A DNA stretch of 49,593 nt from Candidatus Parcubacteria bacterium (GCA_002869165.1 PKTK01000011.1:1-49593), one strand, 5' to 3'; shown: positions 6,182-49,593, counted from the first letter of the stretch. Made by a program: numbers and translations. Notes: generated by a model not told the origin, from the sequence alone.

Positions 6182-6220
6182 TTCATCATAAGCATAAATA
6201 TTAAATACATACTGAGTATT

Positions 6221-12655: not shown

Positions 12656-12663
12656 ATTATCAA

Positions 12664-12761
12664 TGTCATTGCGAACGTAGCGAAGCGAGGTGAAGCAATC
12701 TCAATTAAATGCACTCGACAGAGATTGCCACGTCGTCGCTTCTCTCCTCCTCGCAATGACA
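12664..12761. repeat. REP/MITE-like palindromic element (TGTCATTGCGA...GCAATCTC / GAGATTGC...TCGCAATGACA)
   Basis: Terminal and internal inverted repeats; related TGTCATT...AATGACA elements at about 20454-20480, 20595-20698 and 38524-38587. Confidence 0.75.
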
Positions 12762-12771
12762 AAGGTTTATA

Positions 12772-27941: not shown

Positions 27942-28086
27942 GTACAACAACGAATATGAGGTTCAAGAAATTTACGTTATAATGTTAATAAGGAATGTAA
28001 ATTTCTTTCACCCAAATTTTGACCTCTTTTATCTACTAATACACTAAGGAGTCGGTCAAAACTTCTCATATTCGTAAACGTTAGCT
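27942..28086 (+). repeat. attC-like site 1 (branched)
   Basis: GTACAAC-A-ACGAATATGAG...AGAAATTTAC/GTAAATTTCT...CCCAAA TTTTGACC/GGTCAAAA CTT CTCATATTCGT-AAAC-GTTAGCT. Confidence 0.85.
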
Positions 28087-28158
28087 GAAATAAATAAATT
28101 CTTTTCTGCTATCGCAGAAAAATTATTAAGGCAATTTTTATTCTTTATTTTTTTTACT

Positions 28159-28926
28159 ATGAAAAATGAACTTATCATTAAAAATCTTCGTTTAGTCGTT
28201 GCGGATACTTATGAAGAAATGAGCCAATATACCGCTGACCAAATCCACAATGACATTAAAAAGAAAAGTAACCTGCTTATCTGCACTGCCACCGGCTCCA
28301 CTCCAACAGAAGCCTATGATATGCTTGCCAAAAAATATGACGATGAGCCAGAAGTATTCAGTGGCGTCCGTTTTATTAAACTTGATGAGTGGGGCGGAAT
28401 TCCCATGGATGACCCGGCAACCTGTGAGGTTTATTTACAAGAACATTTGATTTCACCGCTCCAGATTGAAGCATCAAGGTTTGTTTCTTGGAATAGTATT
28501 CCCGAAGACCCAAATCAGGAAGTGAAACGGATATCTAATATGTTTGCCGACGAAGGTGATATTGACCTTTGTATACTTGGCATGGGTGTAAACGGTCATC
28601 TCGGTTTTAACGAACCAGCGGAATTCCTACGTCCCAGTGCACACGTAGCCGAACTCACTGAAACGACAAAAAAACACACAATGGCGCAAAAGGCAGAACA
28701 TGGCATTCAGTATGGATTAACCTTAGGAATGAACGACATTATGAGATCGAAAAAAATCTTGCTATTAGTGAACGGTTCCCACAAAGAAAAGCCTTTCAAG
28801 GAATTTCTTGCTGGTAAAATTACAACTAAATTCCCAACCACCATGCTCTGGATGCATCCGAACGTCACTGTGGTATGTGATAAAGAAGTAGTTCCAAATA
28901 TTGATAAAATTAACAGCCAAAAATAA
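28159..28926 (+). CDS. Cassette 2: glucosamine/galactosamine-6-phosphate isomerase (NagB/YieK-like) family protein
   Basis: ATGSTP, LDEW, LGMGVNGHLGFNEP, GLTLGM..IM, LWMHPNVTVVCD motifs. Confidence 0.9.
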   Translation: MKNELIIKNLRLVVADTYEEMSQYTADQIHNDIKKKSNLLICTATGSTPTEAYDMLAKKYDDEPEVFSGVRFIKLDEWGGIPMDDPATCEVYLQEHLISPLQIEASRFVSWNSIPEDPNQEVKRISNMFADEGDIDLCILGMGVNGHLGFNEPAEFLRPSAHVAELTETTKKHTMAQKAEHGIQYGLTLGMNDIMRSKKILLLVNGSHKEKPFKEFLAGKITTKFPTTMLWMHPNVTVVCDKEVVPNIDKINSQK

Positions 28927-28980
28927 AGAATAAAAATTGCCTTAATAATGCTCGCTATCGCTCGCGAATTTATTTACATC

Positions 28981-29071
28981 AGCTAACAGCGTGTATACGG
29001 TTCGCGCTTGCCTCCGGCAAATGCTCACCCAAATTTGCTTTGCAAACTTCGTATACACGCAAACGTTATGT
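28981..29071 (+). repeat. attC-like site 2 (shortest complete site)
   Basis: AGCTAAC-A-GCGTGTATACG-GTTC..TTGCC/GGCAA..CCCAAA TTTGC/GCAAA CTT CGTATACACGC-AAAC-GTTATGT. Confidence 0.87.
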
Positions 29072-29095
29072 GAAATTTTTAACCTTTTTAAATCT

Positions 29096-29875
29096 ATGAT
29101 CTATTGGAAACTATATTTTTGGTTCATATCACTTATTTCAGTGGTATCAATTTTTTCAAGCATTTCTAAGTTAGTGGGGAATCCCAAGCTTGGACTAATA
29201 GTAGCGTTTTTATTTTTCATGTTTTTTAACATACTTATAGTTTTAAATCTATACTCATTTGTTTACAAGAAAAAGATTGGTAATGACATTTTCCGTAAAA
29301 TAAGTTTCTACATTGTTTCTTTTGTTGTAATGACCATATCAATAGGTGCGCTTGGCAAAATTGGAGAAAAATTATTTTACGCTATTATATTTACTATATT
29401 ACCTTTAGTCCCAGCTGTATATGGTCTATATAAACACGCATTTAAAGACGCTGCTCTAAAAACAAAAGAAAAATCTAGTTCAAAGAAATCTACTATTTGG
29501 AAAATATATTTCTATTTTTTATTGGCGTCTTTAATCTTATCTTTACTGTCCCTGGTTAAAAACTTAGAAAAAGAGTTAGTTAGCTGGAACACAATCAATC
29601 TATTTATATCTAGTTTTTCTCTTTATGGTTTGTACTTATATGTCTTCGATAAACAGAAGTTTAGTAAACAACTTTGGAAAGTTTTTCTAGCAATGTTAAT
29701 AATCTGGGACGTCACCTATTATTTTGCCCTGTCTCCTAGTACTAATTCCGAAATGCTTGAAAAAATTCCCAAAGCCCCGTACTATGCGATGTTCATGATT
29801 ACTATACCTTTATATTATGCCCTATATTTATACAGCTTTAAGTCTGAACGAAAAAAGGTTAAAAACATCACATAA
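29096..29875 (+). CDS. Cassette 3: multi-pass membrane protein with an internal duplication
   Basis: Likely ATG at 29096; two similar halves (WK.YF.F...LY.FV..K); stop TAA lies within the CATAAC site, as is common in integron cassettes. Confidence 0.8.
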   Translation: MIYWKLYFWFISLISVVSIFSSISKLVGNPKLGLIVAFLFFMFFNILIVLNLYSFVYKKKIGNDIFRKISFYIVSFVVMTISIGALGKIGEKLFYAIIFTILPLVPAVYGLYKHAFKDAALKTKEKSSSKKSTIWKIYFYFLLASLILSLLSLVKNLEKELVSWNTINLFISSFSLYGLYLYVFDKQKFSKQLWKVFLAMLIIWDVTYYFALSPSTNSEMLEKIPKAPYYAMFMITIPLYYALYLYSFKSERKKVKNIT

Positions 29876-30040
29876 CAAGCTATATCTGGCTATAGAAAAT
29901 TATCTCAATCTAAACTTCCTCAACGCTACCGCTTTTGAGAAATAATAAGGAGTATAACTTTCTTCCGGCCCAAATTTGAGATATAATAATAAATACTTAA
30001 TAAGGTATATCTCAAACTTCAGATATAGCTATAGTTAAAT
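29870..30040 (+). repeat. attC-like site 3
   Basis: AGCTATATCTG/CAGATATAGCT outer stem, CCCAAA, TTTGAGATATA/TATATCTCAAA hairpin, GTT at 30034. Confidence 0.85.
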
Positions 30041-30113
30041 GAAATAATAAAAATCCTCCTTAATTAAAAACAAAAATATTTTTGGCAATTTATTTAAGGA
30101 TATCTAAAAAAAT

Positions 30114-30443
30114 ATGGAAAATTTAAACAAAGAAGTTTTTAAACCAAATACCCCAGAAGATATAAAAAACGACATAAACATGAAACTTCAGCATTGGGAT
30201 GGTTTATACGAAACTGTTTCTGGTTGGGTTAATTTCAAAGAAAATCTTCCCTTAACTATGGAAGATATCGCAAAGATCATGACTGAAAGTGAGATAGCAC
30301 ACAATAATGTTATCAAATATTTCAGTGAAGGTGGTGAAGGGTTTGAAAAGCAACCTGAATTTTCTAAAGACAAAGTGCTACAATTTTCAGAGCTTGTTAT
30401 TTTGGAACTAAGAGACAAAGTAAAAACCTTAGAAAACAAATAA
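30114..30443 (+). CDS. Cassette 4: hypothetical protein (109 aa)
   Basis: ORF fills the cassette; AAGGA upstream; flanks are inverted repeats. Confidence 0.75.
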   Translation: MENLNKEVFKPNTPEDIKNDINMKLQHWDGLYETVSGWVNFKENLPLTMEDIAKIMTESEIAHNNVIKYFSEGGEGFEKQPEFSKDKVLQFSELVILELRDKVKTLENK

Positions 30444-30494
30444 ATTACCAAAAATATTTTTTTAAAAAAAAGGAGTGAGGATTTTTATTACTTC

Positions 30495-30637
30495 ACTTAA
30501 CACCGCGATAAGCGGCTACAGAAAAATTCCTTCAATAGATTAAATAGGAGGAAATTTTTCTTCCGACCCAAATTTTGATTCCTTAATAATTATAATAAGG
30601 AAGAATCAAAACTTCGCTTCATCGGGAAACGTTATGT
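30495..30637 (+). repeat. attC-like site 4
   Basis: CGATAAGCG/CGCTTCATCG stem, CCCAAA, TTTTGATTC/GAATCAAAA, AAAC-GTT at 30631. Confidence 0.85.
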
Positions 30638-30659
30638 GAAATATTATTAAAACTTTTTT

Positions 30660-31013
30660 ATGAAACTATTAATAGCACTCTCAAAAACATTATTAATTCT
30701 AATATTTTTCTTCTCATTTTTAACTTTAATACACTTAATCAGTAGTTTAAAAGTTATTCCTTGTGAAATAAGTGACTGTAAAGGAGACAAATTAAATGAA
30801 TTAATGGGTGGCGATATTTCAGAAAGAAATCACTGTGCAATTTTTAACCCCATTGCAGATGGAATAGATTGCACAATTAATCCACCAATACTTAAAAGAG
30901 ACAATGGTTATTATTTAATAGGGTATGCTATGTTTTTATTTGTCTTGCATTTTTATATAACAAGAAAAATATTGCCACGATTATACGAAAAAATAACGAA
31001 AAAAAAGTTTTAA
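30660..31013 (+). CDS. Cassette 5: two-TM protein with a Cys-containing loop
   Basis: Hydrophobic N- and C-terminal segments, four Cys in the loop. Confidence 0.75.
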   Translation: MKLLIALSKTLLILIFFFSFLTLIHLISSLKVIPCEISDCKGDKLNELMGGDISERNHCAIFNPIADGIDCTINPPILKRDNGYYLIGYAMFLFVLHFYITRKILPRLYEKITKKKF

Positions 31014-31022
31014 TAATACTAC

Positions 31023-31237
31023 ACATAACACCGCGATAAGCGGCTACAGAAAAATATCTAATCAAAGCTCTCTCTTTGCTACCGCTTAAGAGAGATAATA
31101 ATCAGGAGTATAATTTTCTTTCGACCCAAATTGCGCTGACGATAATCATTGTTTAGTGCTATAATGACTGTAAGTAAATAATCAATATCTAATTTATATA
31201 TCCACGCGCAACTTCGCTTCATCGGTGAGAGTTAGAC
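31023..31237 (+). repeat. attC-like site 5
   Basis: Same ACCGCGATAAGCGGCTACAGAAAAAT start as site 4; CCCAAA TTGCGC...GCGCAA CTT CGCTTCATCGG; GTT at 31231. Confidence 0.82.
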
Positions 31238-31310
31238 GTAATTGTCCTTTTTATAATTATTTTTTAAAAAAAAGAAGCCGTCTGTTTCATTTCAAACGGC
31301 TCTGACATAG

Positions 31311-31637
31311 CTAATTTTTACTATGTTCAAATTTTTTGACAAATTTATGGATTGTTCTCAGCACTAACCAGATAAAAATGATTACCGCAACTACAACAAC
31401 AAATCCAACAAATCCATTTTTTAGAAAAGAACCGAACAATCCCGATTTATACAAGTCCCAAGCACCTATACACGGTAGACATATCATACCTAAAGATATG
31501 ACTGTCATAATTCCCCCGCCTATTGGTCCCCAGTTATTATCCAAGAATGCTCCCTTATAAAAAAGTCCATACAGCATTGCCCATCCACAGATAAAAAAGG
31601 CTACACCAAAGAATATTGCTACTATCTCTCCAGACAT
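31311..31637 (-). CDS. Cassette 6: three-TM membrane protein in reverse orientation
   Basis: GGAGGG RBS, TTGACT -35 at 31720-31725, hairpin downstream; cassette ends GTTAGACG/CGTCTAAC. Confidence 0.75.
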   Translation of the reverse strand: MSGEIVAIFFGVAFFICGWAMLYGLFYKGAFLDNNWGPIGGGIMTVISLGMICLPCIGAWDLYKSGLFGSFLKNGFVGFVVVVAVIIFIWLVLRTIHKFVKKFEHSKN

Positions 31638-31803
31638 GTTATACCCTCCATTTAAGAAAATAAATTTGTCAAAAAATTAGTTTCTACTGTTGGCCTAGTA
31701 TTACATATTATTTAACATCAGTCAACACTAACAAAAACATATTTTAACACGAAAAAATAATTATAAAAATGACAACTCTGCGCTATCGCTTGCCCTTCGG
31801 GAC

Positions 31804-31942
31804 GTCTAACACTCGATATCTGGTTACATATTTTTTCCAATTAATTAATAAGGAACAAAAAAATACTCCACCCAAATTTGTGATATAATTATTAAACTTA
31901 ATAAGGAATATCCCAAACTTCAGATATCGAGAAACGTTCAGC
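31804..31942 (+). repeat. attC-like site 6
   Basis: CTCGATATCTG/CAGATATCGAG stem, CCCAAA, AATAAGGA loops, AAAC-GTT at 31936. Confidence 0.85.
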
Positions 31943-32143
31943 GAAATCGTGCGCCCTCGCTATCGCTCAGTGCTCCGCTTCCGCTAAACGGCTGCGGTCC
32001 CCGAGTTCGGCATTATCGTTTCACTTGCCCTTCGGTCAAGCGCCTCGACAACGCCGAACTCGGCATATACGAAATGTCCAGCCTCAGTCTTCGCTCCGCT
32101 CAGCCTGCGTCTGGCCACTTCGCATATACCGCAGCCGTTGTAT
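31936..32143 (+). repeat. ORF-less cassette 7 plus a GC-rich second-type site; first 140 bp duplicated at 33286-33425
   Basis: GTTCAGCG..CGCTAAAC; AAC-GGCTGCGGT...ACCGCAGCC-GTT perfect stem; CCGAGTTCGGC/GCCGAACTCGG hairpin; copies differ at 4 of 140 positions. Confidence 0.85.
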
Positions 32144-32244
32144 GAAATAGTGACTCAATCAATCTATTTTAAGTACTTGCATATATAGGATTTTTGTGCT
32201 AATTTAACTTGAATTTCATTGATTTCGTCACTACAACACACAAC
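32137..32244 (+). promoter_or_regulatory. Cassette 8: ORF-less cassette with a putative sigma70 promoter
   Basis: TAGTGAC/GTCACTA terminal repeats; TTGCAT(32177)-17-TAATTT(32200) with extended TG. Confidence 0.5.
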
Positions 32245-32797
32245 ATGTGATATGAGACTACGAGTGATGATAAATTTGTTTTTGTTCTTAATATAAAAAT
32301 TAAAAAATCAGAGTTGTGTTAACCATTAATAACAAGGAGAATTATTATGAGTGTATTAGAGCTGAGTCTGGATTTCATGATAGCCGCTAACATCTTAGAT
32401 GAATTTGAGCTAATCATTGACAAAAATGTTGGTAAAAAATATGGAGAAATCTTAGTTTTCGAATATGAGGCTGGTAGATATGCACCTGAAAAATTTTGTC
32501 GCTATGCATTGATGGAGCAAAAAGCGGAAGGGAAAATCCCTCCTGATGTTAATGCATATCACATTGTCGAACTAACATGGATTAATGCAAAAACAAACAT
32601 GATAGCATTCCAACCACTAATTCTTTAAATGCTCACGGTGTAAACTAGTAACAAAGTTTACACCCAATTCTGATTTTTTAATTAACATCAAGGAAAAAAC
32701 AAAAAATAAATTCATCATCCCTCTCCGTCCAAATTTTACAGATAATAATAAAATTAATAAGTTATCTGTAAAACTTCTCATATCACTCTAGTTGTAC
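32238..32797 (+). repeat. attC-like site 8, expanded to ~560 bp with a gene inside hairpin A
   Basis: GTGATATGAG/CTCATATCAC outer stem; arms AATTAAAAAATCAGA/TCTGATTTTTTAATT flank ORF 32347..32628; TCCAAA TTTTACAGATAA/TTATCTGTAAAA CTT. Confidence 0.8.
32347..32628 (+). CDS. Hypothetical protein (93 aa) nested in attC-like site 8
   Basis: AAGGAG RBS; followed by hairpin GGTGTAAACT/AGTTTACACC. Confidence 0.75.
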   Translation: MSVLELSLDFMIAANILDEFELIIDKNVGKKYGEILVFEYEAGRYAPEKFCRYALMEQKAEGKIPPDVNAYHIVELTWINAKTNMIAFQPLIL

Positions 32798-32894
32798 GAA
32801 ATAGCCCTTCTCATTTCTACGAAAGCAATGTTCGTGGCAAAAAAAAGAAGCCCTTGCAAATCTAATAGAAATGCGAAGGGCTACATCGTACAAC
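32791..32894 (+). other. Cassette 9: ORF-less 104-bp cassette
   Basis: GTTGTACGAAATAGCCCTTCTCATTTCTA ... TAGAAATGCGAAGGGCTACATCGTACAAC. Confidence 0.75.
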
Positions 32895-32947
32895 ATGTGA
32901 TATCTGGTTCCAGAAGTGAAAAGTTTTATTTTATTCTTTTAAAGAAA

Positions 32948-32978
32948 AAAGTCATTACTATATTTCAGTAATGACTTT
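32948..32978 (-). terminator. Intrinsic terminator of the tRNA-like RNA
   Basis: 12-bp stem AAAGTCATTACT/AGTAATGACTTT followed by a T-run on the minus strand. Confidence 0.75.
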
Positions 32979-32987
32979 AACACGGGA

Positions 32988-33122
32988 CGCGCTGCATTGG
33001 ACTCGAACCAAAGGTTAAATATCCTAACACGTTATGCTTATGCAATATGTGTGCACCCACTTACACAGTTCACAACACGTATCATTGGTATTCGACCTGC
33101 TCCCTCACTAAGCTAACAGCAC
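32988..33122 (-). ncRNA. tRNA-like RNA (135 nt) with a long hairpin replacing the anticodon arm
   Basis: Acceptor GTGCTGT/GCAGCGC, TA-GCTT-AGTGAGG-GAGC D-arm, TTGG-TTCGAGT-CCAA T-arm; extended GGTCGAATA/TATTTAACC stem. Confidence 0.7.
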
Positions 33123-33155
33123 GTTATAATCTGAATGAACATTTTAATTGATAAA

Positions 33156-33183
33156 ATAGTAACATAAATTTCACACTTGTCAA
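33156..33183 (-). promoter_or_regulatory. Sigma70 promoter for the tRNA-like RNA
   Basis: TTGACA-16-TACTAT with extended TG. Confidence 0.65.
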
Positions 33184-33285
33184 TAACACCATGAAATAAA
33201 ATAAAACTTTTCACTTCTTACTCCCAAATTTTTGAAAAATAATTAATCTTAATAAGGAGTTTCAAAAACTTCAGATATCACCCTA

Positions 33286-33425
33286 GTTCAGCGAAATCGT
33301 GCGCCCTCGCTATCGCTCGATGCTCCGCTTCCGCTGAACGGCTGCGGTCCCCGAGTTCGGCATTATCGTGTCACTTGCCCTTCGGTCAAGCGCCTCGACA
33401 ACGCCGAACTCGGCATATACGAAAT
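33286..33425 (+). repeat. Cassette 10: second copy of the ORF-less GC-rich unit, truncated at CATATACGAAAT
   Basis: 136 of 140 bases identical to 31936-32075. Confidence 0.85.
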
Positions 33426-33516
33426 AATAAAAAACATTTTCCATTCGGAAAATAATTATTTTGTTAATTTATAAAAAAAGAGTTCCATGATTTTTCCTTC
33501 ATGAAACCCTATGGTG

Positions 33517-33753
33517 CTAACTTGTATAAAAGGGGCAGTCACCAAACTCCAAGATATCGTCCGATTTTTTATTGGACGCATTACAGACGTCGAGATTGGA
33601 TACTTTTTTAAAATGCCTACATAATGGTTTACTCAGACCAGATTTATAAATCTTCACGATAACGTTTTCTGCTTCTGGCAAAACTTTACCATTATTCTTG
33701 TCCACTCCTTTACAATTCACCTTATGCGTTCCTATGATTTCATCACGTACCAT
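33517..33753 (-). CDS. Cassette 11: small Cys-containing protein in reverse orientation with its own promoter
   Basis: AGGAGG RBS; TTGACA(33873)-17-TAGTAT(33850); four Cys. Confidence 0.75.
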   Translation of the reverse strand: MVRDEIIGTHKVNCKGVDKNNGKVLPEAENVIVKIYKSGLSKPLCRHFKKVSNLDVCNASNKKSDDILEFGDCPFYTS

Positions 33754-33901
33754 TCTTACAACCTCCTTTTTTTATAAATTAACAATATAATTTTGAAATT
33801 GCTATTACCTATTTAAACATTTATACTGAAAAGACCGATGTCATATACTACAATATTTAAATTAATCTGTCAAGGCGCAATTTCTAGTTTTTTACTACAT
33901 A

Positions 33902-34019
33902 ACATAACACCACGATATACGGTTCGGTCTCCTATCGGAAACCTCTCCCAAATTTATGATATAATTAATTATACTTAATAAGGTATATCATAAACTTCGT
34001 ATATCGGGAAACGTTATAC
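33902..34019 (+). repeat. attC-like site 11
   Basis: CGATATACG/CGTATATCG stem, CCCAAA TTTATGATATA/TATATCATAAA CTT, AAAC-GTT at 34013. Confidence 0.85.
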
Positions 34020-34161
34020 GCAATTCAAAAAATATTTTCTTTTAATTAGGTTTTTGATAGGCAATTAATGAGAATTTAAATTTGATTTTTTAATTAATTA
34101 TAAAGGGGGAAAGTTGAGTTCCTTCACTGGTGTTCAGGAGACAATTTAATTTTAAATATTT

Positions 34162-35112
34162 ATGAATTATAAAAAATATTTCTCTGATAATAATCTCATA
34201 GAAAATAAGAATATCCCTAATTCTGTGTGGCTAGATTACGTAAAAAATGGCATTTACCCAGTTAGAGGTTTGGTATTTTTCTATTTTTTTATACTCATTT
34301 TAATGCTGTCTTTTTTTATTATTCCGTCATTGAATATTTATCAAAAAATAAAAATTGAATTTCTTGGAGATGATTTCACTTTATTTGTTTACATTGCTAT
34401 TTCATCATTGTTATTCCTGATACTCTTTTTTAAATATTTTAATAAAAAAGGTGATTACTGGAGAAAGGTTCCTATTAATAATTGGTTTAGATCATGGAGA
34501 ATTTATAATTTTTTAGAATATTTAGAAAAAGAAAATATTTCAAATATTGGGCTATTTGATAAACAAAAAAACATTTTTCAAATAAATTCATTCAAAAATA
34601 CTGGAGTTATTACAATAGACTACATTATTGATTTAGGGCTACTTGCCACAGCAGACAGAAAATCGCCCATTAATTACACATTTCGGACTAATAAAGAAGT
34701 TGAAGCAGGTTATGAATATTCTCATTTTTTTAAACTATCTTTTGAAAGTTATATTTTTAGAAAACTAAAAAATACAATATATTTTTATGGCAATAATCGA
34801 AGTACTTTTAGTAGATATCTATTTTTAGAAACAATTAAAGACAAGGGTAATGTTTTTTTAAAAAATGATGATGAAAACACCGGGGTCAATAAATTGCTTT
34901 ACGATATTAAAAAATTAATACAAGATTACCCAAACTTAAAAGGAGAAATATTGATTGACAACACAAGTGTAGTGGTTAAATTTTATGACAACTATAGACA
35001 CTTCACTATGCTCAACACTGACGGGAAACAGTATTTTGATTTTTTGAAAAATAAAAATAATTTGTTTGAAAGTTTTGAAGGTTGTGAAAAATTATTAAAC
35101 ATTTTGAGCTAG
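34162..35112 (+). CDS. Cassette 12: membrane-anchored hypothetical protein (two TM helices)
   Basis: 316-aa ORF; flanking sequences resemble those of cassette 1. Confidence 0.75.
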   Translation: MNYKKYFSDNNLIENKNIPNSVWLDYVKNGIYPVRGLVFFYFFILILMLSFFIIPSLNIYQKIKIEFLGDDFTLFVYIAISSLLFLILFFKYFNKKGDYWRKVPINNWFRSWRIYNFLEYLEKENISNIGLFDKQKNIFQINSFKNTGVITIDYIIDLGLLATADRKSPINYTFRTNKEVEAGYEYSHFFKLSFESYIFRKLKNTIYFYGNNRSTFSRYLFLETIKDKGNVFLKNDDENTGVNKLLYDIKKLIQDYPNLKGEILIDNTSVVVKFYDNYRHFTMLNTDGKQYFDFLKNKNNLFESFEGCEKLLNILS

Positions 35113-35201
35113 CTATTATTTTTATTAAAACAAAAAATAAAACTTTCTCTACAATTATTTAACATTTAATATATTTAGCAACGCGATAAAAAACTTACAT
35201 C

Positions 35202-35343
35202 GCACAACAAACGATATACGGCTACAGAAAAATTCCTTTATTAATTAACACCAAGGAGTAAACTTTTCTTCCGACCCAAATTATAAAAATGAACATTAAT
35301 TTAATAAGGTATTTTTAGAACTTCGTATATCTACTTATTGTAT
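35202..35343 (+). repeat. attC-like site 12, degenerate end of the array
   Basis: GATATACG/CGTATATC stem and CCCAAA present, but terminal GTT is replaced by ATT (35337). Confidence 0.75.
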
Positions 35344-44894: not shown

Positions 44895-45197
44895 ATGCCA
44901 AATGAAGCACAATTCATGTCTGCCATAAATAAACCAACTGTTCATGGAAAATATGAAAATCAAGACACCAAAGAAAAAGGAAGTCTTGAAAAAAGAATTG
45001 AAGATAACATGAATAATTTTAGAGAACAATTCGCTACATTTAATGAAGATGAGCCAATTTTAATAAAAGCACAAGAACTTCTAGATGAATTTGGTAGCAG
45101 TAGCAATATTCCAGAATCAGAACTAGATTTTGATAAATCAAATTTTGATGAAGCAAGACTTCTAGGAATGGCAAAAATATTAGAAAATAATCAATAG
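44895..45197 (+). CDS. Hypothetical protein (100 aa)
   Basis: ORF downstream of a TTGACA...TATAAT promoter at about 44768-44795. Confidence 0.6.
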   Translation: MPNEAQFMSAINKPTVHGKYENQDTKEKGSLEKRIEDNMNNFREQFATFNEDEPILIKAQELLDEFGSSSNIPESELDFDKSNFDEARLLGMAKILENNQ

Positions 45198-45219
45198 TCA
45201 TATAATAAGGAGGTAAACA

Positions 45220-45435
45220 GTGACTGATAACAATCTTTCTAATAGATTCGAATCATACAAAGAAAACATTACCCTGTTCCAATTAGCCATTAGACTAATA
45301 AAAGAATATGGGAAAACGGACAAAATCCCGCTTGGAGAGATTAAGCAATCAAATACGGGGTTTTCTGAAGAAGATCTTATTGCCTGTTGTAAACTTGCTG
45401 AAGAAGAAATAATTAAAGAAAAGCTAGTACATTGA
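45220..45435 (+). CDS. Hypothetical protein (71 aa)
   Basis: AAGGAGG RBS before GTG. Confidence 0.6.
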   Translation: MTDNNLSNRFESYKENITLFQLAIRLIKEYGKTDKIPLGEIKQSNTGFSEEDLIACCKLAEEEIIKEKLVH

Positions 45436-45678
45436 TTTATATTGAGCATATTCAAGAAACATGTGAATATGCTCTTTTTTATTAAAAAAATAAAGACCGG
45501 AATTATTGTATCCGGTCTTTTTGAGATTTTGCTTACTCCGTTTTCGAGAGTAAAGTTTTTTGCCTTTTTTATGGCCATGACTCCCGCCTCTTTTATGAAG
45601 GGTTTCCAGAGCTACATTTGGCAGTTTGATCTTTGGGATCTCCTTGTTTTTGCTCCTAATCCTCTTTCTTTTTTTCAT
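45424..45678 (-). CDS. Small basic protein, candidate ArfA/BrfA-like ribosome rescue factor
   Basis: NVALETLH...HKKGKKLYSRKRSK resembles the ArfA KKGKGSYxRK region; intrinsic terminator inside the frame. Confidence 0.5.
   Translation of the reverse strand: MKKRKRIRSKNKEIPKIKLPNVALETLHKRGGSHGHKKGKKLYSRKRSKQNLKKTGYNNSGLYFFNKKEHIHMFLEYAQYKSMY
45484..45522. terminator. Bidirectional intrinsic terminator inside ORF 45424..45678
   Basis: AAAGACCGGA-9nt-TCCGGTCTTT with A/T tracts on both sides. Confidence 0.8.
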
Positions 45679-45687
45679 TTCATCATC

Positions 45688-45906
45688 CTATATTTTACAA
45701 TTTTCACAAAGGTCTCCTTTTGAAGGAGATCCGCATTGACTACAGCCTAACATAATATGACCATATATTCCACTATACTGGCCAATACGTTTTTGAATGA
45801 TGGTACTACGACGAACTTTTCTTTGTTTGTCCTGATAGTGGTAAGACCCTTTAGAACCGCTACATTCCTCTCTACAATACACTCTTGTACATTCTTGGCA
45901 AGCCAT
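45688..45906 (-). CDS. Small Cys-rich (zinc-binding-like) protein
   Basis: CQEC...C...C, CSQC, CENC; GGAGG RBS. Confidence 0.7.
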   Translation of the reverse strand: MACQECTRVYCREECSGSKGSYHYQDKQRKVRRSTIIQKRIGQYSGIYGHIMLGCSQCGSPSKGDLCENCKI

Positions 45907-45999
45907 AGGCTAAATCCTCCAAATTTTATTTTATTTATTTTTCCTTTAATATTTCACTTTTATCAAATGAAATATTAGAGAAAAGCGAAGTTTTCTCAT

Positions 46000-46278
46000 T
46001 TATTCCTCCAAAAAATAAAATTTATCATCTACTTTCAAACAATCCCTCATTCCTTCTATCCAAATAAAAGCTTCTGCGTTCTCATAATAATAATTATCCT
46101 CCTCGACAGTTTCTAGTTTTTTAACGCTTTCTTCTTTAACTACGCAGACTCCACAACAAACTTTTCCCATAAAACTCAATTCTCCTTTTTCCCAAGCATT
46201 AATCAGATCTTTCTTATTTCCCTTGAATTCTACTCCATAACTTGCAAACCCAAATTCTTCATCGATGTAAATTTTCAT
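46000..46278 (-). CDS. Hypothetical acidic protein (92 aa)
   Basis: AAGGAGG RBS; bounded by repeats. Confidence 0.75.
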   Translation of the reverse strand: MKIYIDEEFGFASYGVEFKGNKKDLINAWEKGELSFMGKVCCGVCVVKEESVKKLETVEEDNYYYENAEAFIWIEGMRDCLKVDDKFYFLEE

Positions 46279-46470
46279 AATAGCCTCCTTGGCTTTTGTT
46301 TTTTTGTCTTTAATATTCCCTCTAACATTGCACTTAGTATAAATGAAATATTAGAGAAAAGCGAAGTTTTCTCGTTTTGCTTTTGCTTGATCTTCTCATC
46401 CGGTAACGCTCAAGCAAGCATTACTCTGACCACCCAAGAAGTAGGTGCCTAAAAAGGTAAAGTCAAGCTC

Positions 46471-46764
46471 CTAGACCCTGGTGATCAGAAAAGGAGTAAC
46501 ACCGATCTCGAGAATCTCCTCGATGGTGTACTCTTTTCCGAACTCGAGTCGGCCCTTGGGCTTCAAGGCAAGTGCCTCATCATAGCCCTGGCAGACTCCT
46601 CGAGTCTCGGTCGGATCGACACCGATCGCCTTTACGGTCTGGTGACCGCAAAAGTTCTCAGCGTCTACCGCCCAAGCCCGAGCTTCGTCGAGAGAAATCA
46701 CCTTGGCGGTGAAATTTCCCTCTTCGAGGAGCATAGGAGCAGAAAGAATTGCTTTTCTCGTCAT
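46471..46764 (-). CDS. DUF1874/STIV B116-family protein (AcrIII-1-like cA4 ring nuclease)
   Basis: ISLDEARAW...ENFCGHQT (conserved GH), TR, KGRLEFGKEYTIEEI match the family pattern; GGGAGG RBS; visibly GC-richer than its surroundings. Confidence 0.75.
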   Translation of the reverse strand: MTRKAILSAPMLLEEGNFTAKVISLDEARAWAVDAENFCGHQTVKAIGVDPTETRGVCQGYDEALALKPKGRLEFGKEYTIEEILEIGVTPFLITRV

Positions 46765-46923
46765 AGAGCAAGCCTCCCTTCCTTAATTAATTGTCAAATG
46801 TTTATCAAGGAGTGACAATATCTCCTTCCCTCTAGCATCTCACTACTTATAATGAGATATTAGAGAAAAGCGAAGTTTTTTTAATTTTTTTCTTACTGAA
46901 ATTGTAACAATTTAAAGTGTTTT

Positions 46924-47231
46924 GCTCAGGCCGATTGATAAAGTCGGTTTTTCCATATCGCTATCGAGGCACACTTTAGCCCCGCAATCATTCCGCTCCA
47001 ATGCGAGAGCGAACACGGAGATTTGATTGAACTCCCCAATTACCTCAGAATTTTATTCTTTGGTTTTTGGTCAAGACCGTGGATAAATATATGTTATCAA
47101 TTCATATACCATCCCACACCTAGTTTACAATATCTTTAAAACAATACATTGTTTTAAAGTATTGCTGCTACTACAATGGTACTTAACTGTCACCATTTAT
47201 AGCAGTGCTAGGATTTTCACTATTACAACCC
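46924..47231 (-). ncRNA. Candidate structured ncRNA, copy B
   Basis: No ORF of 60 aa or more on the sense strand; shares ordered sequence blocks with copy A. Confidence 0.6.
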
Positions 47232-47320
47232 AATAGCATTTCACAAATAATTTATGAAATATTATCGAGGGGAGACTTTTTCGATTGTCGAAAAAATCTC
47301 CCTAAAATGTGTTTGAAATA

Positions 47321-47640
47321 GCGGGTCCGATTGATGGTCGGTTTGTGCTTGCCTATTTCTTTTTCTTAACGAGGTCACTTTTTTATCCCCGCAATATCCT
47401 TCCTTTGCTTTATTTAATGGCGCAAAGGATTACAGATGGTTAGTCTGCTTGTTGGTTTGGATCGTGGATGCTCGGATCAAGCACCCCCTTGCTTTTTACA
47501 ATATCCCTTGAGGAAAGGAAATATCGCTTCGGGCTCTACGTGGCCCCTTGGAGGAGATCACTACCCCCAACCCATGGCGAGTTACCAACTCACCCCGAAT
47601 CGCTTACGCGACACTTCCGGACAGTCAGAAGATTTTTGGA
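47321..47640 (-). ncRNA. Candidate structured ncRNA, copy A
   Basis: GC-rich hairpins with minus-strand G-U pairs (GGTGAGT/ACTCGCC, GGGTGCTT/GAGCATCC); homologous to copy B. Confidence 0.6.
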
Positions 47641-47726
47641 TTTCTCCTCTAGCATCTCACTACTTATAATGAGATATTAGAGAAAAGCGAAGTTTTCTCT
47701 CTCTACAAAAGCAAAATCTTGCGGAC

Positions 47727-48086
47727 TTATTCATAGCCTGCTAAACATGATGAACATGCTAAATTCAGCTGGCGATGATTAAGATCACGAAGAAAAACAA
47801 TGTCGATTTTATTTAAAATCGCCTTGTCTTTCACTGTGTACCCATAAGATTTTACTTTGACAATCTTTACACGCTTATACAACATGATATATCTTCTTGC
47901 TTTGCAACAATAGAATTTTTTTTCTACTGGTCCAGAAACTGCAAGCGCAATAAAATAAACTGTGTAAAGCTTGTCTTCAAAACGCATAAAATGATCTTTT
48001 ATCCGTTTTGACTTACCAGGATTTTTTAAGATCCTGGCTTCTGCAACATAAAATGGGATACTTCCTATCTTTTTTGCTTTTTCCAT
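47727..48086 (-). CDS. Hypothetical basic protein (about 119 aa; likely start ATG 48086)
   Basis: AAGGGGGA RBS; the longer upstream start would run through a repeat. Confidence 0.7.
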   Translation of the reverse strand: MEKAKKIGSIPFYVAEARILKNPGKSKRIKDHFMRFEDKLYTVYFIALAVSGPVEKKFYCCKARRYIMLYKRVKIVKVKSYGYTVKDKAILNKIDIVFLRDLNHRQLNLACSSCLAGYE

Positions 48087-48228
48087 TTTTGTCCCCCCTT
48101 TTTTCCTGAACATTCCACTTAGAAAAAGCCTGTTTGAGAAAAGCGAAGTTTTCTCGTATTGCATTGATAGTGTCCGCTTATCAGGCGCCCAGGTGCTTCC
48201 CCTGAGTATTACAGGTCAGTTTATATCC

Positions 48229-48423
48229 TCATGACATAGAGGGTTGTTTTTTAAACAGCTTACGAACCCCCAGACCGAGAAACACATACTTTAGTACAAA
48301 GACTAAAACGAATGTGCTGGCTACGATGTTCGGATCGTAACCTACGAACAGAGCACTATTGCTCATATACGTACCGATCCATTGAACAAGGCCAAGCAGC
48401 AGAAAAATTGCAAAGTATAGCAT
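48229..48423 (-). CDS. Small two-TM membrane protein
   Basis: AGGAG RBS; hydrophobic. Confidence 0.65.
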   Translation of the reverse strand: MLYFAIFLLLGLVQWIGTYMSNSALFVGYDPNIVASTFVLVFVLKYVFLGLGVRKLFKKQPSMS

Positions 48424-48455
48424 TTTAGTCTCCTGTAATATGACATTTATTTGTT

Positions 48456-48622
48456 AATTTCCCAAAACTTCGCAAAGGCTTGTTTTATAAATTGCGCACA
48501 ATAAAACTTCGCGGAAAAATTGTGCTAGATATTGTTTATAGAATCTGGAATGCTAAATTTTTATAATTCATTCCTTGTTTCATACAAGCATATCTTGACC
48601 CTTTGCGAAGTTTTGGGAAATT
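48456..48622. repeat. 167-bp element with perfect 23-bp terminal inverted repeats
   Basis: AATTTCCCAAAACTTCGCAAAGG / CCTTTGCGAAGTTTTGGGAAATT; internal AAAACTTCGC at about 48503. Confidence 0.8.
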
Positions 48623-48977
48623 CCACCCTCACCCCTTGGAAGAATTCTTTTTTAATTCTCACCACCCCTCCATCTCCATTCTTCAAACAAGAAGGAATAG
48701 GAAAGGATGATACTCTTAACAAATAATTCTTCAAAAAGGTGAGGGTATTTAATTGTCAATGAACTTTCCGTTCTGCACGACAAGCATGTTTTCAGGATTA
48801 ATTGTTTTAGAATTTAAACTACTTTTGATAATCTTTTTCTATTGACCTTTCCCTTGATTTAATTATTTAGTAGAAAGAATATCTAGAAAATGTTATATAT
48901 TTGTAGTTTTTGTTACCGCAGAGACTTGTGGTCAAAATCCGTAGTTTTTTGCATCAGGCTGTTTAGCTTGATATGTC

Positions 48978-49006
48978 AGTATAGCATACATTTTGAATCT
49001 TGTCAA
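48978..49006 (-). promoter_or_regulatory. Strong sigma70 promoter facing the second array
   Basis: TTGACA-17-TATACT with extended TG. Confidence 0.7.
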
Positions 49007-49139
49007 GACTTTCTAACACATTTTTCTATATAATGGCACTATTTATTTAATATTAGATAAATATTTATGTTATTATATGTTAATGAAATATTACATAATC
49101 AATAAAAACAAAAAAATACCTACTTTTTGTTGGCAGGTA

Positions 49140-49168
49140 TTGACAAATAATTAAATATATGATATAAT
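49140..49168 (+). promoter_or_regulatory. Consensus sigma70 promoter
   Basis: TTGACA-17-TATAAT with extended TG. Confidence 0.75.
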
Positions 49169-49220
49169 GATATATCGAACCTTAAAAAGCAATTTTACAT
49201 TAATTTCCACAGGAGATATC

Positions 49221-49436
49221 ATGAGCAAATGTATCAAATTTTTCATTGGAACCCCGAAGAGAGCACTAGTTTCAATTATATTTGTAGCAGCAATCATCCT
49301 GCTTGACAAAGCGGGGTTAGCAGCGCCGATGATTGATCGGCTTATGCAAGAAACCATCGGTCGTTTCATGGGACCTGTGGTTACAATCGTAGTTCTGATT
49401 GTAATTTTCAGAACAATTCTTGGTGGAAGAAAATAA
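49221..49436 (+). CDS. Small two-TM membrane protein (71 aa)
   Basis: AGGAG RBS before ATG 49221; downstream of the consensus promoter. Confidence 0.65.
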   Translation: MSKCIKFFIGTPKRALVSIIFVAAIILLDKAGLAAPMIDRLMQETIGRFMGPVVTIVVLIVIFRTILGGRK

Positions 49437-49593
49437 CACAGTTAAACCTATAACCAGGAGGTGAGCCATGGGTGGCTAACTAACACCGAAAGGTAAACCA
49501 GTCCCAGAAGTCTTGGGACTGGAACCTAGTAGGAGTTAGAACATCTCATAACATAAGAAGGAGAGACAACAGTGAACGGCTAGAATGTCAAAC

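What the first reader, a model, noticed from the sequence alone, without database searches (positions are those of the whole stretch)
45424..48622. Second array: small genes and ncRNAs separated by a conserved double-hairpin repeat
On the minus strand, six related repeats (four full, one partial, one variant) each separate one cargo unit of about 280-430 bp: membrane protein, basic protein, RNA A, RNA B, DUF1874 protein, acidic protein, Zn-binding protein. All lie downstream of a strong promoter at 49006. The second hairpin varies in sequence but stays paired, mostly with sense-strand G-U pairs. The spacers are gene-sized, so this is not CRISPR, and no recombinase lies next to it within the window. 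Hypotheses: RNA processing or termination signals, repeated promoters (TTCGCT-17/18-TATAAG/TATACT) as in ssDNA-promoter leading regions of mobile elements, or recombination sites of another cassette system.
Basis: partly seen in the sequence, partly recalled or inferred. Interest (0 to 1): 0.82.

Follow-up and report, generated by a model that had tools for sequence, protein, structure and literature searches.

The report
RNA tags punctuating a small-gene operon
A tiny uncultured bacterium carries one operon of swappable small genes and RNAs, each preceded by the same short tag and hairpin, and the operon's leader displays the exact complement of that tag, which hints at a shared RNA-level control that has not been described.

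Summary
Cargo is separated by a module made of a 10-nt tag (AAAACUUCGC) and a hairpin with a fixed lower stem and a free top. There are four full copies, one with a different hairpin and one hairpin-only copy. The hairpin covaries and is more stable on the sense strand, so an RNA (or sense single-strand) role fits best. The tag is confined to this locus in its genome. About nine related loci exist in other Candidate Phyla Radiation (CPR) genomes. They carry different cargo, and each sits beside a TrmB-like regulator wherever the flank is visible. New here: the leader shows the tag's exact complement in the loop of a covarying hairpin, in 9 of 9 leaders. The modules are not sigma-70 promoters, CRISPR, REP-like repeats or classical attC sites. 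Best reading (about 0.45): intercistronic RNA processing or control modules that also act as portable homology for swapping cargo. No RNA data exist to test this.

The parts
48978..49006 (-). Operon promoter (sigma-70 type, 17-nt spacer, TG before the -10)
   Evidence: Matches 11 of 12. The surrounding ~220 nt are 73% identical to L009 and partly conserved in G005. The same promoter sequence is seen by eye in G319/L014.
48623..48971 (-). Untranslated leader; a hairpin (48745-48739 with 48632-48626) closes just before the head
   Evidence: No sense ORF of 40 aa or more that looks real. The closing arms and a preceding TTGACAAT are shared with L012 and L015.
48456..48622 (-). Head RNA: a 23-bp outer stem (arm A 48622-48600 with the tag at 48614-48605; arm C with the tag complement at 48473-48464) that encloses two hairpins
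   Evidence: MFE -55.6 kcal/mol, z -6.75, 0 of 200 shuffles as good. The same architecture appears in a 4-locus consensus fold and an 8-locus alignment.
48496..48525 (-). Hairpin b of the head: a 7-bp stem presenting GCGAAGUUUU (48512-48503), the exact complement of the tag, in a 16-nt loop
   Evidence: The 10-mer is invariant in 9 of 9 leaders, while the stems differ in sequence and stay complementary.
48229..48423 (-). Cargo 1: 64-aa hydrophobic protein
   Evidence: ORF. No family in Pfam, PHROGs or NCBIfam.
48166..48242 (-). Conserved element just upstream of unit 1
   Evidence: 82% identical over 78 nt to the same position in L012.
48093..48158 (-). Unit 1: tag (48152-48143) and first hairpin, but a different downstream hairpin that reaches the ribosome-binding site of the next ORF
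   Evidence: Model R1 E 1.5e-4; sequence and fold.
47727..48086 (-). Cargo 2: 119-aa basic protein (start taken at 48086)
   Evidence: ORF. No family. Atlas scores under 0.8.
47635..47702 (-). Unit 2: tag 47696-47687 and hairpin
   Evidence: R1 E 3.2e-15.
47270..47634 (-). Cargo 3: structured RNA A (46% G+C), no ORF
   Evidence: z -3.96, 0 of 100 shuffles as good. No Rfam family. No relative in the other loci.
47229..47269 (-). Hairpin-only partial unit between RNA A and RNA B (no tag)
   Evidence: R1 E 0.13, model positions 19-58.
46886..47228 (-). Cargo 4: structured RNA B, no ORF
   Evidence: z -6.0. No Rfam family.
46818..46885 (-). Unit 3: tag 46879-46870 and hairpin (upstream arm of the first hairpin degenerate)
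   Evidence: R1 E 2.4e-14.
46471..46764 (-). Cargo 5: 97-aa DUF1874 / STIV_B116-like protein, 53% G+C in a 33.5% genome
   Evidence: Pfam PF08960 E 5e-4, below the cut-off. 15 of 28 homologues carry PF08960. G+C.
46308..46376 (-). Unit 4: tag 46370-46361 and hairpin
   Evidence: R1 E 1.1e-15.
46000..46278 (-). Cargo 6: 92-aa acidic protein
   Evidence: ORF. No family. Atlas nothing above 0.75.
45932..46000 (-). Unit 5: tag 45994-45985 and hairpin
   Evidence: R1 E 8e-15. In a second sample a contig departs from the window exactly at 45945.
45688..45906 (-). Cargo 7: 72-aa Cys-rich (Zn-binding type) protein
   Evidence: ORF. No family. No depth in run X2 over 45640-45859.
45424..45678 (-). Last gene: 84-aa very basic protein, not preceded by a unit. 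A terminator hairpin (45519-45493) and T-run (45492-45484) lie inside the ORF, 19 codons before the stop
   Evidence: Sequence. Homologues are the last gene in L014 and L051. No Pfam or PDB match.
49140..49436 (+). Divergent unit: perfect promoter (49140-49168) and an 89-aa small membrane protein (49167-49436). In L009 and L014 its homologues are cargo downstream of the operon promoter
   Evidence: Promoter 12 of 12; homologues.
49495..49593 (-). Overlap with the end of contig C10, which places a TrmB-like regulator gene (G000:C10:58092-58829) directly upstream. A terminator-like hairpin lies at 49522-49498
   Evidence: 99 nt at 100% identity. TrmB PF01978 E 7e-15 on the G005 orthologue, which is 72% identical. 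Terminator.

Best explanation
The stretch is one long transcription unit in the chromosome of a small CPR (Moraniibacteriota-like) bacterium. It is driven by a single consensus promoter next to a TrmB-like regulator gene. The repeats are intercistronic RNA modules. Each has a 10-nt tag (AAAACUUCGC, usually single-stranded) followed at once by a hairpin. The lower stem of the hairpin is fixed (UUUCUCUAA pairing with UUAGAGGGAA through two U-G pairs), and its top is free to vary and to take insertions. I infer that these modules punctuate the polycistronic RNA. They would mark where it is cut or remodelled, so that each cargo (protein gene or structured RNA) starts with its own 5' hairpin. The long stems are likely substrates for the RNase III that the genome encodes. 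The leader ('head') belongs to the same system. Its outer stem has the same base and contains the tag, and an inner hairpin displays the tag's exact complement in a large loop. That loop could pair with every module, over 10 bp in this genome and up to 13 bp in others, which would give one leader-borne control over all cargo. The ~30 conserved nucleotides flank every cargo and recur in different genomes, so they also serve as portable homology through which cargo is gained, lost and swapped.

Shown: the anatomy, the covariation, the strand bias, the complementarity, the restriction to one locus, the variable cargo and the foreign composition of one cargo gene. Inferred: transcription as one unit, cleavage, tag-loop pairing and its effect, and the route of cargo exchange.
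For: Single promoter and no promoter-like units. All cargo and all units are co-oriented.

Hairpin covariation: 85.9% paired against 70.9% in shuffles (0 of 500 as high), 11 of 18 pairs changed on both sides, slid controls 55-59%.

Sense strand more stable than antisense in 17 of 20 units, by a mean of 4.6 kcal/mol, with 57 G-U pairs of 452. The two conserved U-G pairs at the stem base would be C-A mismatches on the other strand.

The tag is intact in every unit, including variants that lack the usual hairpin. Where it changes (C to U in L009 and G005) it would still pair with the loop as G-U.

The tag complement is invariant in 9 of 9 leaders inside a hairpin with at least four unrelated, complementary stem sequences. 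It is kept in L009, whose leader lacks the tag copy.

The head folds with z -6.75, and the consensus fold of 4 heads has 42 pairs, 4 of them compensatory.

An RNase III gene is present.

Locus restriction: 8 of the genome's 14 copies of the 9-mer are in this array (a ninth copy lies in the first array on the same contig), the reversed-motif control gives 9, and the model finds nothing strong elsewhere.

Related arrays lie next to a TrmB-like gene in 5 of 5 loci whose upstream flank could be read.

Cargo differs between loci and is mosaic, with homology breaks at the modules. The DUF1874-like gene has 53% G+C against 33.5% for the genome. A second sample's contig departs from the window at the 3' edge of unit 5 (single contigs at depth 3-5, so weak).
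Against: There is no transcript evidence of any kind, so co-transcription, cleavage and pairing are all inferred.

In the window the head folds equally well on both strands (-55.6 against -54.5 kcal/mol), so the head by itself does not prove an RNA role.

The 7-6-7 palindrome around the tag has the layout of a tyrosine-recombinase core site, and the tag with its complement could equally be one double-stranded DNA site in two orientations.

Near-100% conservation of 30 nt across genera is more than RNase III sites normally need, and it points to a specific factor that I could not identify.

Three of 20 units are not more stable on the sense strand.

The last two genes have no unit between them. 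In G005 a single unit precedes polA with no cargo array, so the module is not tied to cassettes.

Only about nine loci exist, several of them closely related, so the covariation counts partly reflect shared descent.
Confidence: 0.45

Rival explanations
1. The modules are site-specific recombination sites of a cassette platform that resembles an integron but is not one. The tag with its 7-bp inverted flanks would be the crossover core, the structured hairpin would be recognised on one folded DNA strand, and the head would be the primary insertion site downstream of a common promoter.
For: The architecture is promoter, head, then promoterless cargo each bounded by a module. The hairpin has a conserved base and a variable top and is strand-biased, as in folded attC sites. 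The 7-6-7 palindrome surrounds the tag. Cargo sets differ between genomes and one cargo gene is compositionally foreign. A strain variant breaks at a module edge.
Against: No recombinase is nearby. Upstream lies a TrmB-like regulator. The nearest tyrosine recombinase is 19 kb away at 25437-26300. It scores as XerA-type (231 bits, cut-off 220) and is below the integron-integrase cut-off (196 against 265). The palindrome is absent from the second unit subtype and from the head. Contigs of two samples show no joints or deleted forms, though contigs hide rare forms. In G005 one unit sits in front of polA with no cassettes. The mosaic pattern is equally explained by ordinary homologous recombination in the 30-nt conserved stretch.
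Confidence: 0.15
2. The tag is a DNA operator for the neighbouring TrmB-like regulator, or part of a promoter for an alternative sigma factor. Each module would then be a promoter/operator giving every cargo its own regulated start.
For: A TrmB-like gene is the constant neighbour in 5 of 5 loci. The tag occurs in both orientations in the head. A -10-like hexamer (TAATAT or TAAAAT) follows the tag at a fixed distance in most units.
Against: None of the 5 units passes the sigma-70 scan, while the organism clearly uses consensus promoters here and at its rRNA operon. There is no -35 at the right distance. All units have the same orientation as the cargo. G-U-dependent, covarying pairing has no role in a double-stranded operator. 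The tag is not palindromic, as TrmB-type sites usually are (recalled).
Confidence: 0.12
3. The modules are nut-like processive antitermination sites, with a boxA-like sequence followed by a hairpin. They would reload an elongation complex so that RNA polymerase reads through the untranslated leader and the non-coding cargo.
For: The pyrimidine-rich stretch after the tag, above all in the CGCUCUCU subtype, resembles the boxA-like elements in this genome's own rRNA spacer. A hairpin follows it directly. NusB is encoded. The operon contains more than 1 kb of untranslated RNA.
Against: The resemblance is 7-10 nt in an AT-rich setting and was not tested statistically. The boxA-like stretch is base-paired in the conserved hairpin. 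No Rho RNA-binding domain was found in a 95.75%-complete genome, so the main need for such sites may be missing. One site per operon is usually enough (recalled). This reading does not explain the invariant tag or its complement in the leader.
Confidence: 0.1
4. The hairpins are small selfish palindromic insertions (MITE-like) with no function. They would be locally amplified, and the tag would be only their preferred target.
For: Terminal inverted sequences with a variable interior. Insertions of 30-90 nt in some hairpin tops. A related hairpin-plus-motif repeat occurs in the first array of the same contig and once on C6.
Against: The hairpins are restricted to one locus type across genera and absent from the rest of each genome. 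Orientation is always the same as the cargo. The G-U asymmetry is conserved, and the complementary loop in the leader is invariant.
Confidence: 0.05

Closest known systems
PeSL cassettes (promoter-early stem-loops) of T4-type phages (PMC2839356, abstract and outline read; PMC4122927, search listing and start of abstract only)
   Same: Short conserved regulatory repeats flank small, mostly unknown genes in a hypervariable region. Recombination between copies shuffles, deletes and replaces the genes.
   Different: PeSLs are strong sigma-70-like promoters plus terminator stem-loops in phage genomes. These units have no promoter match and no T-run. They lie in a bacterial chromosome beside a regulator gene, show RNA-type covariation, and are matched by a complementary loop in the leader.
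RNase III processing sites between the early genes of phage T7 (recalled, not looked up)
   Same: One strong promoter region, a polycistronic RNA of small genes, and a related structured hairpin between cistrons that defines and stabilises the individual messages.
   Different: T7 sites lack an invariant single-stranded tag and a complementary leader loop, and they are not conserved across distant genomes with different cargo. Cleavage is not shown here.
Integron: Pc promoter, attI, attC-bounded promoterless cassettes (recalled)
   Same: A common promoter and an array of small, variable, partly foreign cargo. The boundary elements are conserved at the stem base, variable at the top, and strand-biased.
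   Different: There is no adjacent integrase, and the only tyrosine recombinase on the contig is Xer-like and 19 kb away. The stem base does not follow the attC core consensus. The modules are near-identical across genera. The neighbour is a TrmB-like regulator.
Antisense kissing-loop control of plasmid replication and of leader attenuation, CopA/CopT and pT181 type (recalled)
   Same: A conserved loop is exactly complementary to a target presented in or beside a hairpin. Alternative pairings around the target (upstream arm or downstream arm competing for the same pyrimidine stretch) could switch structure on binding.
   Different: The 'antisense' loop is encoded in the same transcript, not on the opposite strand, and it would address five or more targets. 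No terminator follows the switch, and the outcome is unknown.
Lambda nut / rRNA boxA-boxB antitermination sites (recalled)
   Same: A pyrimidine-rich boxA-like stretch with a hairpin next to it, repeated along a long, partly untranslated transcript.
   Different: The similarity is weak and untested. The stretch is paired. The tag and its complement have no counterpart. Rho was not found.

Membership tests
CRISPR array | Repeats of about 23-50 nt separated by spacers of similar short length | tested here: not met
   Start-to-start spacing is 376-817 nt, and the 'spacers' are genes or structured RNAs.
REP / BIME / MITE-like dispersed repeats | Many copies scattered over the genome | tested here: not met
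   A 17-mer search with up to 2 mismatches gives 6 hits in 1.43 Mb, 5 in the array and 1 inside a membrane-protein gene. The covariance model finds nothing below E 0.02 outside the contig.
Integron | Integron integrase gene next to the array, divergent from it | tested here: not met
   The upstream neighbour is a TrmB-like regulator. The nearest PF00589 gene is at 25437-26300, best model XerA-type, with TIGR02249 at 196 bits against a cut-off of 265.
Integron | attC sites with the conserved 7-nt inverse-core and core sequences at the stem base (consensus recalled) | tested here: not met
   By inspection of 20 units, the stem base is UUUCUCUAA / UUAGAGGGAA and does not fit that consensus.
Integron | Boundary elements conserved in structure rather than sequence, single-strand specific; common promoter upstream of promoterless cassettes | tested here: met
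   Covariation, strand bias, and a single promoter.
PeSL cassettes of T4-type phages | Each repeat carries a strong sigma-70-like promoter | tested here: not met
   0 of 5 units reach 9 of 12 in the scan.
PeSL cassettes of T4-type phages | The stem-loop acts as a transcription terminator | tested here: not met
   No unit is called terminator-like, and no T-run follows the hairpin. Function was not assayed.
PeSL cassettes of T4-type phages | Repeats flank small ORFan genes in a hypervariable region and mediate their shuffling | tested here: inconclusive
   Cargo sets differ, and homology breaks fall at the units. One strain variant breaks at a unit edge. No mini-circles or joints were seen.
RNase III processing sites (T7 early type) | Double-stranded stem of about two helical turns; RNase III present in the host | tested here: met
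   The head outer stem is 23 bp, unit hairpins are 18-22 bp or longer, and an RNase III gene lies at G000:C12:4888-5283.
RNase III processing sites (T7 early type) | Cleavage in the stem in vivo or in vitro | not testable with these tools
   No RNA run holds this sequence.
ssDNA (Frpo-type) promoters of conjugative leading regions | A long hairpin that rebuilds -35 and -10 boxes; location in the leading region next to transfer genes | tested here: not met
   Stems of 18-22 bp are too short to hold both boxes and give no box matches. The neighbours are a regulator, nrdD/nrdR and housekeeping genes.
nut / boxA-boxB antitermination sites | boxA sequence able to bind NusB-S10, adjacent hairpin | tested here: inconclusive
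   The units resemble the genome's own rRNA-spacer boxA-like elements only loosely. NusB is present and Rho was not found.
Antisense kissing-loop regulators | Conserved complementary sequences presented in loops | tested here: met
   The tag complement is invariant in the loop of a covarying hairpin in 9 of 9 leaders. In units that have the first hairpin, the central six nucleotides of the tag form its loop.
Antisense kissing-loop regulators | Regulator transcribed from the opposite strand of its target; pairing shown to change expression | tested here: not met
   The loop lies in the same transcript, 350-2600 nt upstream of its putative targets. Any effect is untested.
DUF1874 / STIV_B116-like (cargo 46471-46764) | Match to PF08960 above the curated cut-off | tested here: inconclusive
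   The protein itself scores 20.5 bits against a cut-off of 26, over nearly the full length. 15 of 28 homologues at 40-84% identity carry PF08960.

The most novel reading that the evidence does not exclude
A one-to-many riboregulatory platform. The operon's leader is processed from its long outer stem into a small RNA. The invariant loop of that RNA kisses the identical tag in front of every cargo and flips each module between two pairings: the upstream arm or the downstream arm competing for the same pyrimidine stretch. This would gate the processing or translation of all cargo at once. Any gene or RNA that recombines in between two modules would automatically come under that control. In effect this would be an RNA-addressed counterpart of an integron, in bacteria with minimal genomes.
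Probability: 0.22. Interest if true: 0.85.

Novelty: new variant of a known kind. Interest (0 to 1): 0.62.

Why it matters
CPR bacteria have tiny genomes and almost no studied gene regulation. This locus keeps a constant frame (regulator, promoter, structured leader, last gene) and fills it with changing small genes and RNAs. One of these is a DUF1874-type protein, a family that I recall includes viral ring nucleases acting against type III CRISPR signalling. If the tag-and-hairpin modules are processing or control signals read through a leader-borne complementary loop, this would be a new way to express and regulate captured genes without giving each one a promoter. It would also be a compact, portable design for synthetic operons. 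Even in the most sober reading, it adds several conserved structured RNAs absent from Rfam, and it is a clear case of repeat-mediated cargo turnover in a chromosome rather than a phage.

Tried and rejected
**RNA families.** Rfam at gathering threshold over the whole window found only a tRNA-Pro. Rfam at E<=5 over 45000-49593 gave only chance-level microRNA and leader hits.

**Protein families for the cargo.** Pfam, PHROGs and NCBIfam gave nothing except the weak PF08960 hit. The protein atlas scored under 0.8 for the acidic and basic proteins.

**Sequencing runs.** No RNA holder was listed; 2 DNA runs of one study hold the stretch. Laying their contigs gave no joints and no begin or end pile-ups, and contigs cannot show rare forms.

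**Searches for more copies.**
- The viral-contig scan for the 20-mer gave 0 hits.
- The metagenome scan gave 7 stretches. Four are real (three close to loci already held, one new short contig) and three are chance hits in GC-rich DNA.
- The order-wide search for the head's 5' arm with up to 3 mismatches hit 23 of 316 genomes. On inspection only G005 is a real head. The rest are chance or a conserved pheT coding motif, and the reversed-pattern control hit at a similar rate.
- The model search in the family hit 5 of 25 genomes, but only G000 and G004 strongly. The tool scored only 150 candidates per genome and missed the known G005 unit.

**The idea that the last gene is an ArfA-type ribosome-rescue factor.** This came from recall and from the terminator inside the ORF. 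It found no support in Pfam at E<=10 or in a 4-sequence profile against PDB sequences. The word-based homologue search found only 2 proteins.

**A shared 3' module in RNA A and RNA B.** The best local alignment is 29 nt with score 24, against a shuffle mean of 18.7 and maximum of 29, so it is not significant.

**A complement of the first array's motif near that array.** None was found.

**Hairpin b covariation.** It could not be counted formally, because the stems sit in different registers in the ungapped alignment. It is reported from inspection.

**Other.** A literature search for Patescibacteria with attC and gene cassettes returned 2 unrelated resistome papers. I made no other search for prior descriptions, so 'not described' rests on Rfam and that one search.

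Full report
**What is there.**
The window is a whole contig (G000:C11) of a 1.43-Mb genome that is 95.75% complete and has 33.5% G+C. The closest named relatives of the locus are Candidatus Moraniibacteriota assemblies.

Read on the minus strand, the finding is the body of one transcription unit:
- A promoter lies at 49006-48978. It matches the sigma-70 consensus in 11 of 12 positions and has a TG.
- About 350 nt of leader follow, then a ~165-nt structured 'head' at 48622-48456.
- Next come five small ORFs and two ORF-free stretches. The ORF-free stretches fold far better than shuffles (z -3.96 and -6.0).
- The last ORF is an 84-aa basic protein. Its coding sequence runs into a hairpin and a T-run at 45519-45484, 19 codons before its stop.

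A second, perfect promoter points the other way and drives an 89-aa membrane protein.

The last 99 nt of the window are identical to the end of contig C10. The gene directly upstream is therefore a TrmB-family regulator at G000:C10:58092-58829. A terminator-like hairpin lies behind it at 49522-49498. So what lies beyond the right edge is a regulator, not a relaxase, integrase or phage gene.

**The repeats.**
The 20-nt core occurs five times, against 0.01 expected, and 0 of 100 shuffles reached five. A covariance model built from 11 units of 6 loci finds the following in the whole genome:
- four full copies at E<=2.4e-14;
- one copy with a different downstream hairpin (48093-48158, E 1.5e-4);
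- one hairpin-only copy between the two RNAs (47229-47269, E 0.13).

Comparison across loci changes the anatomy. The constant parts are a 10-nt tag, AAAACUUCGC, and directly after it a hairpin. The lower stem of this hairpin is fixed (UUUCUCUAA pairing with UUAGAGGGAA, including two U-G pairs), and its upper part varies in sequence and length, with insertions of up to about 90 nt.

It is missing in a second unit subtype (tag followed by CUCUCU) and in several variants.

**RNA or DNA?**
On an alignment of 11 units the main hairpin is paired in 85.9% of cells, against 70.9% in column shuffles (0 of 500 as high). Eleven of 18 pairs change on both sides, and sliding the partners by 1-3 columns drops pairing to 55-59%. 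The sequences are related, so these figures overstate independence.

In 17 of 20 units from 9 loci the sense strand folds better than the antisense strand, by 4.6 kcal/mol on average, with 57 G-U pairs among 452. All units have the orientation of the cargo.

This speaks for a role as RNA, or at least as the sense single strand. The window's head is an exception. Its 23-bp outer stem is perfect, so it folds equally well on both strands (-55.6 and -54.5 kcal/mol). In four other loci the same stem contains conserved G-U pairs.

**The head and the complementary loop.**
The 'variant' repeat is a conserved leader structure found in G000, twice in G005, and in L011, L012, L014, L015 and L051. A long outer stem starts with the same base as the unit hairpins and contains the tag on its 5' arm. 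It encloses a covarying hairpin and a second hairpin, b.

In hairpin b the 10 nt GCGAAGUUUU, the exact complement of the tag, sit in a loop of 16-18 nt. This 10-mer is invariant in 9 of 9 leaders. The stems that present it have at least four unrelated sequences that stay complementary.

L009 keeps hairpin b although its leader has no tag copy. The loop is therefore not conserved merely as the partner of the head's own tag. Where the tag differs (C to U in L009 and G005), it would still pair with the loop through G-U.

Pairing between loop and unit could reach 10 bp in this genome and up to 13 bp where the loop has a longer U-run (by inspection). Whether they pair, and with what effect, is inferred.

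**Distribution and neighbours.**
- *Own genome.* The 9-mer of the tag occurs 14 times. Eight copies are in this array, one is in the first array on the same contig, and five are elsewhere. The reversed motif occurs 9 times. The only other 17-mer hit lies inside a membrane-protein gene.
- *Relatives.* Among 61 genomes including G000, the 17-mer with up to 1 mismatch hits three. One of these (G045) is inside glmS and is chance. The other (G004) is a true array on a short contig.
- *All species.* A scan of one genome for each of 185,579 species for the exact 20-mer gave 7 stretches. Six are arrays or parts of arrays and one is an isolated hit in a Bacteroidota genome.
- *Viral and metagenome collections.* Viral contigs gave none. 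The metagenome collection gave 7 stretches, 4 of them real.

The element is therefore rare and tied to one type of locus.

In all 5 loci whose upstream flank could be read (G000, G005, G004/L009, G320/L015, G319/L014), a TrmB-like gene lies 0.3-2 kb upstream. The promoter sequence is also conserved. L011's upstream flank was not examined.

In G005 the frame is present, with regulator, promoter, two heads and one unit. It leads straight into polA and has no small cargo.

**Cargo turnover.**
Sense ORFs of the eight arrays fall into nine small families that are shared in different combinations and orders among L009-L015. All window cargo is unique among these loci except the last gene. Homologues of that gene close the array in L014 and L051 as well.

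Between L011, L013 and L014, blocks of 80-90% identity begin or end at the units, and the genes next to them differ.

The DUF1874-like gene has 53% G+C (50-57% in 200-nt windows) in a 33.5% genome. Its best homologues outside this genome are 81-84% identical proteins from other metagenomes. Fifteen of its 28 homologues carry PF08960, and two viral contigs encode relatives at 40% identity.

In a second sample of the same study, contigs of a close strain follow the window on both sides. One leaves it at 45945, the 3' edge of unit 5, and others leave it at 45531/45490. There is no cover over the Cys-rich gene. These are single contigs at depth 3-5, so this is only a hint.

Together these points suggest that cargo is exchanged by recombination in or next to the conserved modules. 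I saw no joints or circles. The only recombinase on the contig is a XerA-type gene 19 kb away, which scores below the integron-integrase cut-off.

**What it is not.**
- Not CRISPR, because of the spacing.
- Not REP-like.
- Not a set of sigma-70 promoters. None of the 5 units reaches the scan threshold, although the organism uses textbook promoters here and at its rRNA operon.
- Not intrinsic terminators, since no T-run follows the hairpin.
- Not a classical integron.
- Not a leading-region ssDNA promoter: the stems are too short and the neighbours are wrong.

**Mechanism.**
I favour intercistronic RNA modules, at about 0.45. In this reading a single-stranded tag and a long stem tell the cell where to cut or remodel the polycistronic RNA. 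Each cargo then keeps a 5' hairpin.

RNase III is the obvious enzyme. Its gene is present, and the stems have the right length.

The near-perfect conservation of some 30 nt across genera, and the invariant complementary loop in the leader, show that something more specific reads the tag. The simplest candidate is the leader loop itself.

A nut-like antitermination role is possible but weaker. The similarity to the genome's own boxA-like elements is loose. NusB is present, but no Rho RNA-binding domain was found.

Site-specific recombination and a DNA operator for the TrmB-like protein remain open at lower odds. RNA data or simple reporter tests would separate all of these readings.

**Comparison with known systems.**
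In evolutionary behaviour the nearest system is the PeSL cassettes of T4-type phages (PMC2839356, abstract and outline read; PMC4122927, listing only). These units fail the two defining PeSL features, a promoter and a terminator.

In likely molecular role they resemble the RNase III sites of the T7 early region. In layout they resemble an integron without an integrase. The leader loop recalls antisense kissing-loop regulators. These last three comparisons rest on recall.

I found no family in Rfam and no description in the one literature search made.

Supplementary files of papers were not consulted and do not bear on the claims.

Noticed in passing
window 28059-35331 (+), also G000:C6:47608 (-): The 'first array' uses a different but related repeat. 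It has CCCAAAUU, a hairpin with a variable, compensating stem and a conserved loop ending UUAAUAAGG, then AAACUUC(A/G/U) and a downstream AAACGUUA. At least ten copies separate small ORFs and ORF-free GC-rich stretches. Two copies carry the same tag 9-mer as array 2. No complementary loop was found near it.
   Followed up: partly
window 31936-32075 and 33286-33425 (+): A 140-nt GC-rich, ORF-free segment is duplicated at 97% identity inside the first array, each copy directly after a repeat.
   Followed up: no
window 45424-45678 (-): The last gene of the array encodes a very basic 84-aa protein with an invariant GG.H...KGK..Y.RK core. A terminator hairpin and T-run lie inside the ORF, so most transcripts would lack a stop codon. 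In the homologues the C-terminal residues also look like a translated terminator. This recalls the regulation of the ribosome-rescue factor ArfA, but Pfam and PDB profile searches gave nothing.
   Followed up: partly
window 46471-46764 (-): The DUF1874-like gene has 53% G+C in a 33.5% genome, and close homologues (81-84% identity) occur in other metagenomes. It is probably a recent import.
   Followed up: partly
L009 1774-1863, L011 2089-2168, L013 1323-1405, L014 2637-2722 (all in array-sense coordinates), L015 5098-5182: An ~85-nt element of three consecutive hairpins, with compensating changes in two of them, follows cargo ORFs and often directly precedes a unit in five other loci. It is absent from the window and matches no Rfam family in the window search.
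   Followed up: no
window 48166-48242 (-): A conserved element between the first cargo ORF and unit 1 is 82% identical to the same position in L012. Its structure and role are unknown.
   Followed up: no
window 25437-26300 (-): A XerA-type tyrosine recombinase (NF040815, 231 bits, cut-off 220) lies about 2-4 kb before the first array and divergent from it. The genome has 8 PF00589 genes, 5 of them on contig C5.
   Followed up: partly
window 28159-28926 (+) and L042: In G005 a NagB-like deaminase gene and its neighbours lie just upstream of the TrmB-like gene and the heads. In G000 the same gene lies just upstream of the first array, so the two arrays may derive from one ancestral site.
   Followed up: no
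G000:C1 (L053) 4635-4929: A group I intron lies in the rRNA operon region (Rfam RF00028, 89 bits), and four tRNA genes lie within or after the operon.
   Followed up: no
window 2390-18129 (-): Three very large ORFs (1263, 2144 and 1785 aa) have many internal ~730-nt repeats. They are probably surface proteins.
   Followed up: no
whole genome G000: No Rho RNA-binding domain was found (genome 95.75% complete), while NusB and RNase III lie side by side on C12.
   Followed up: no
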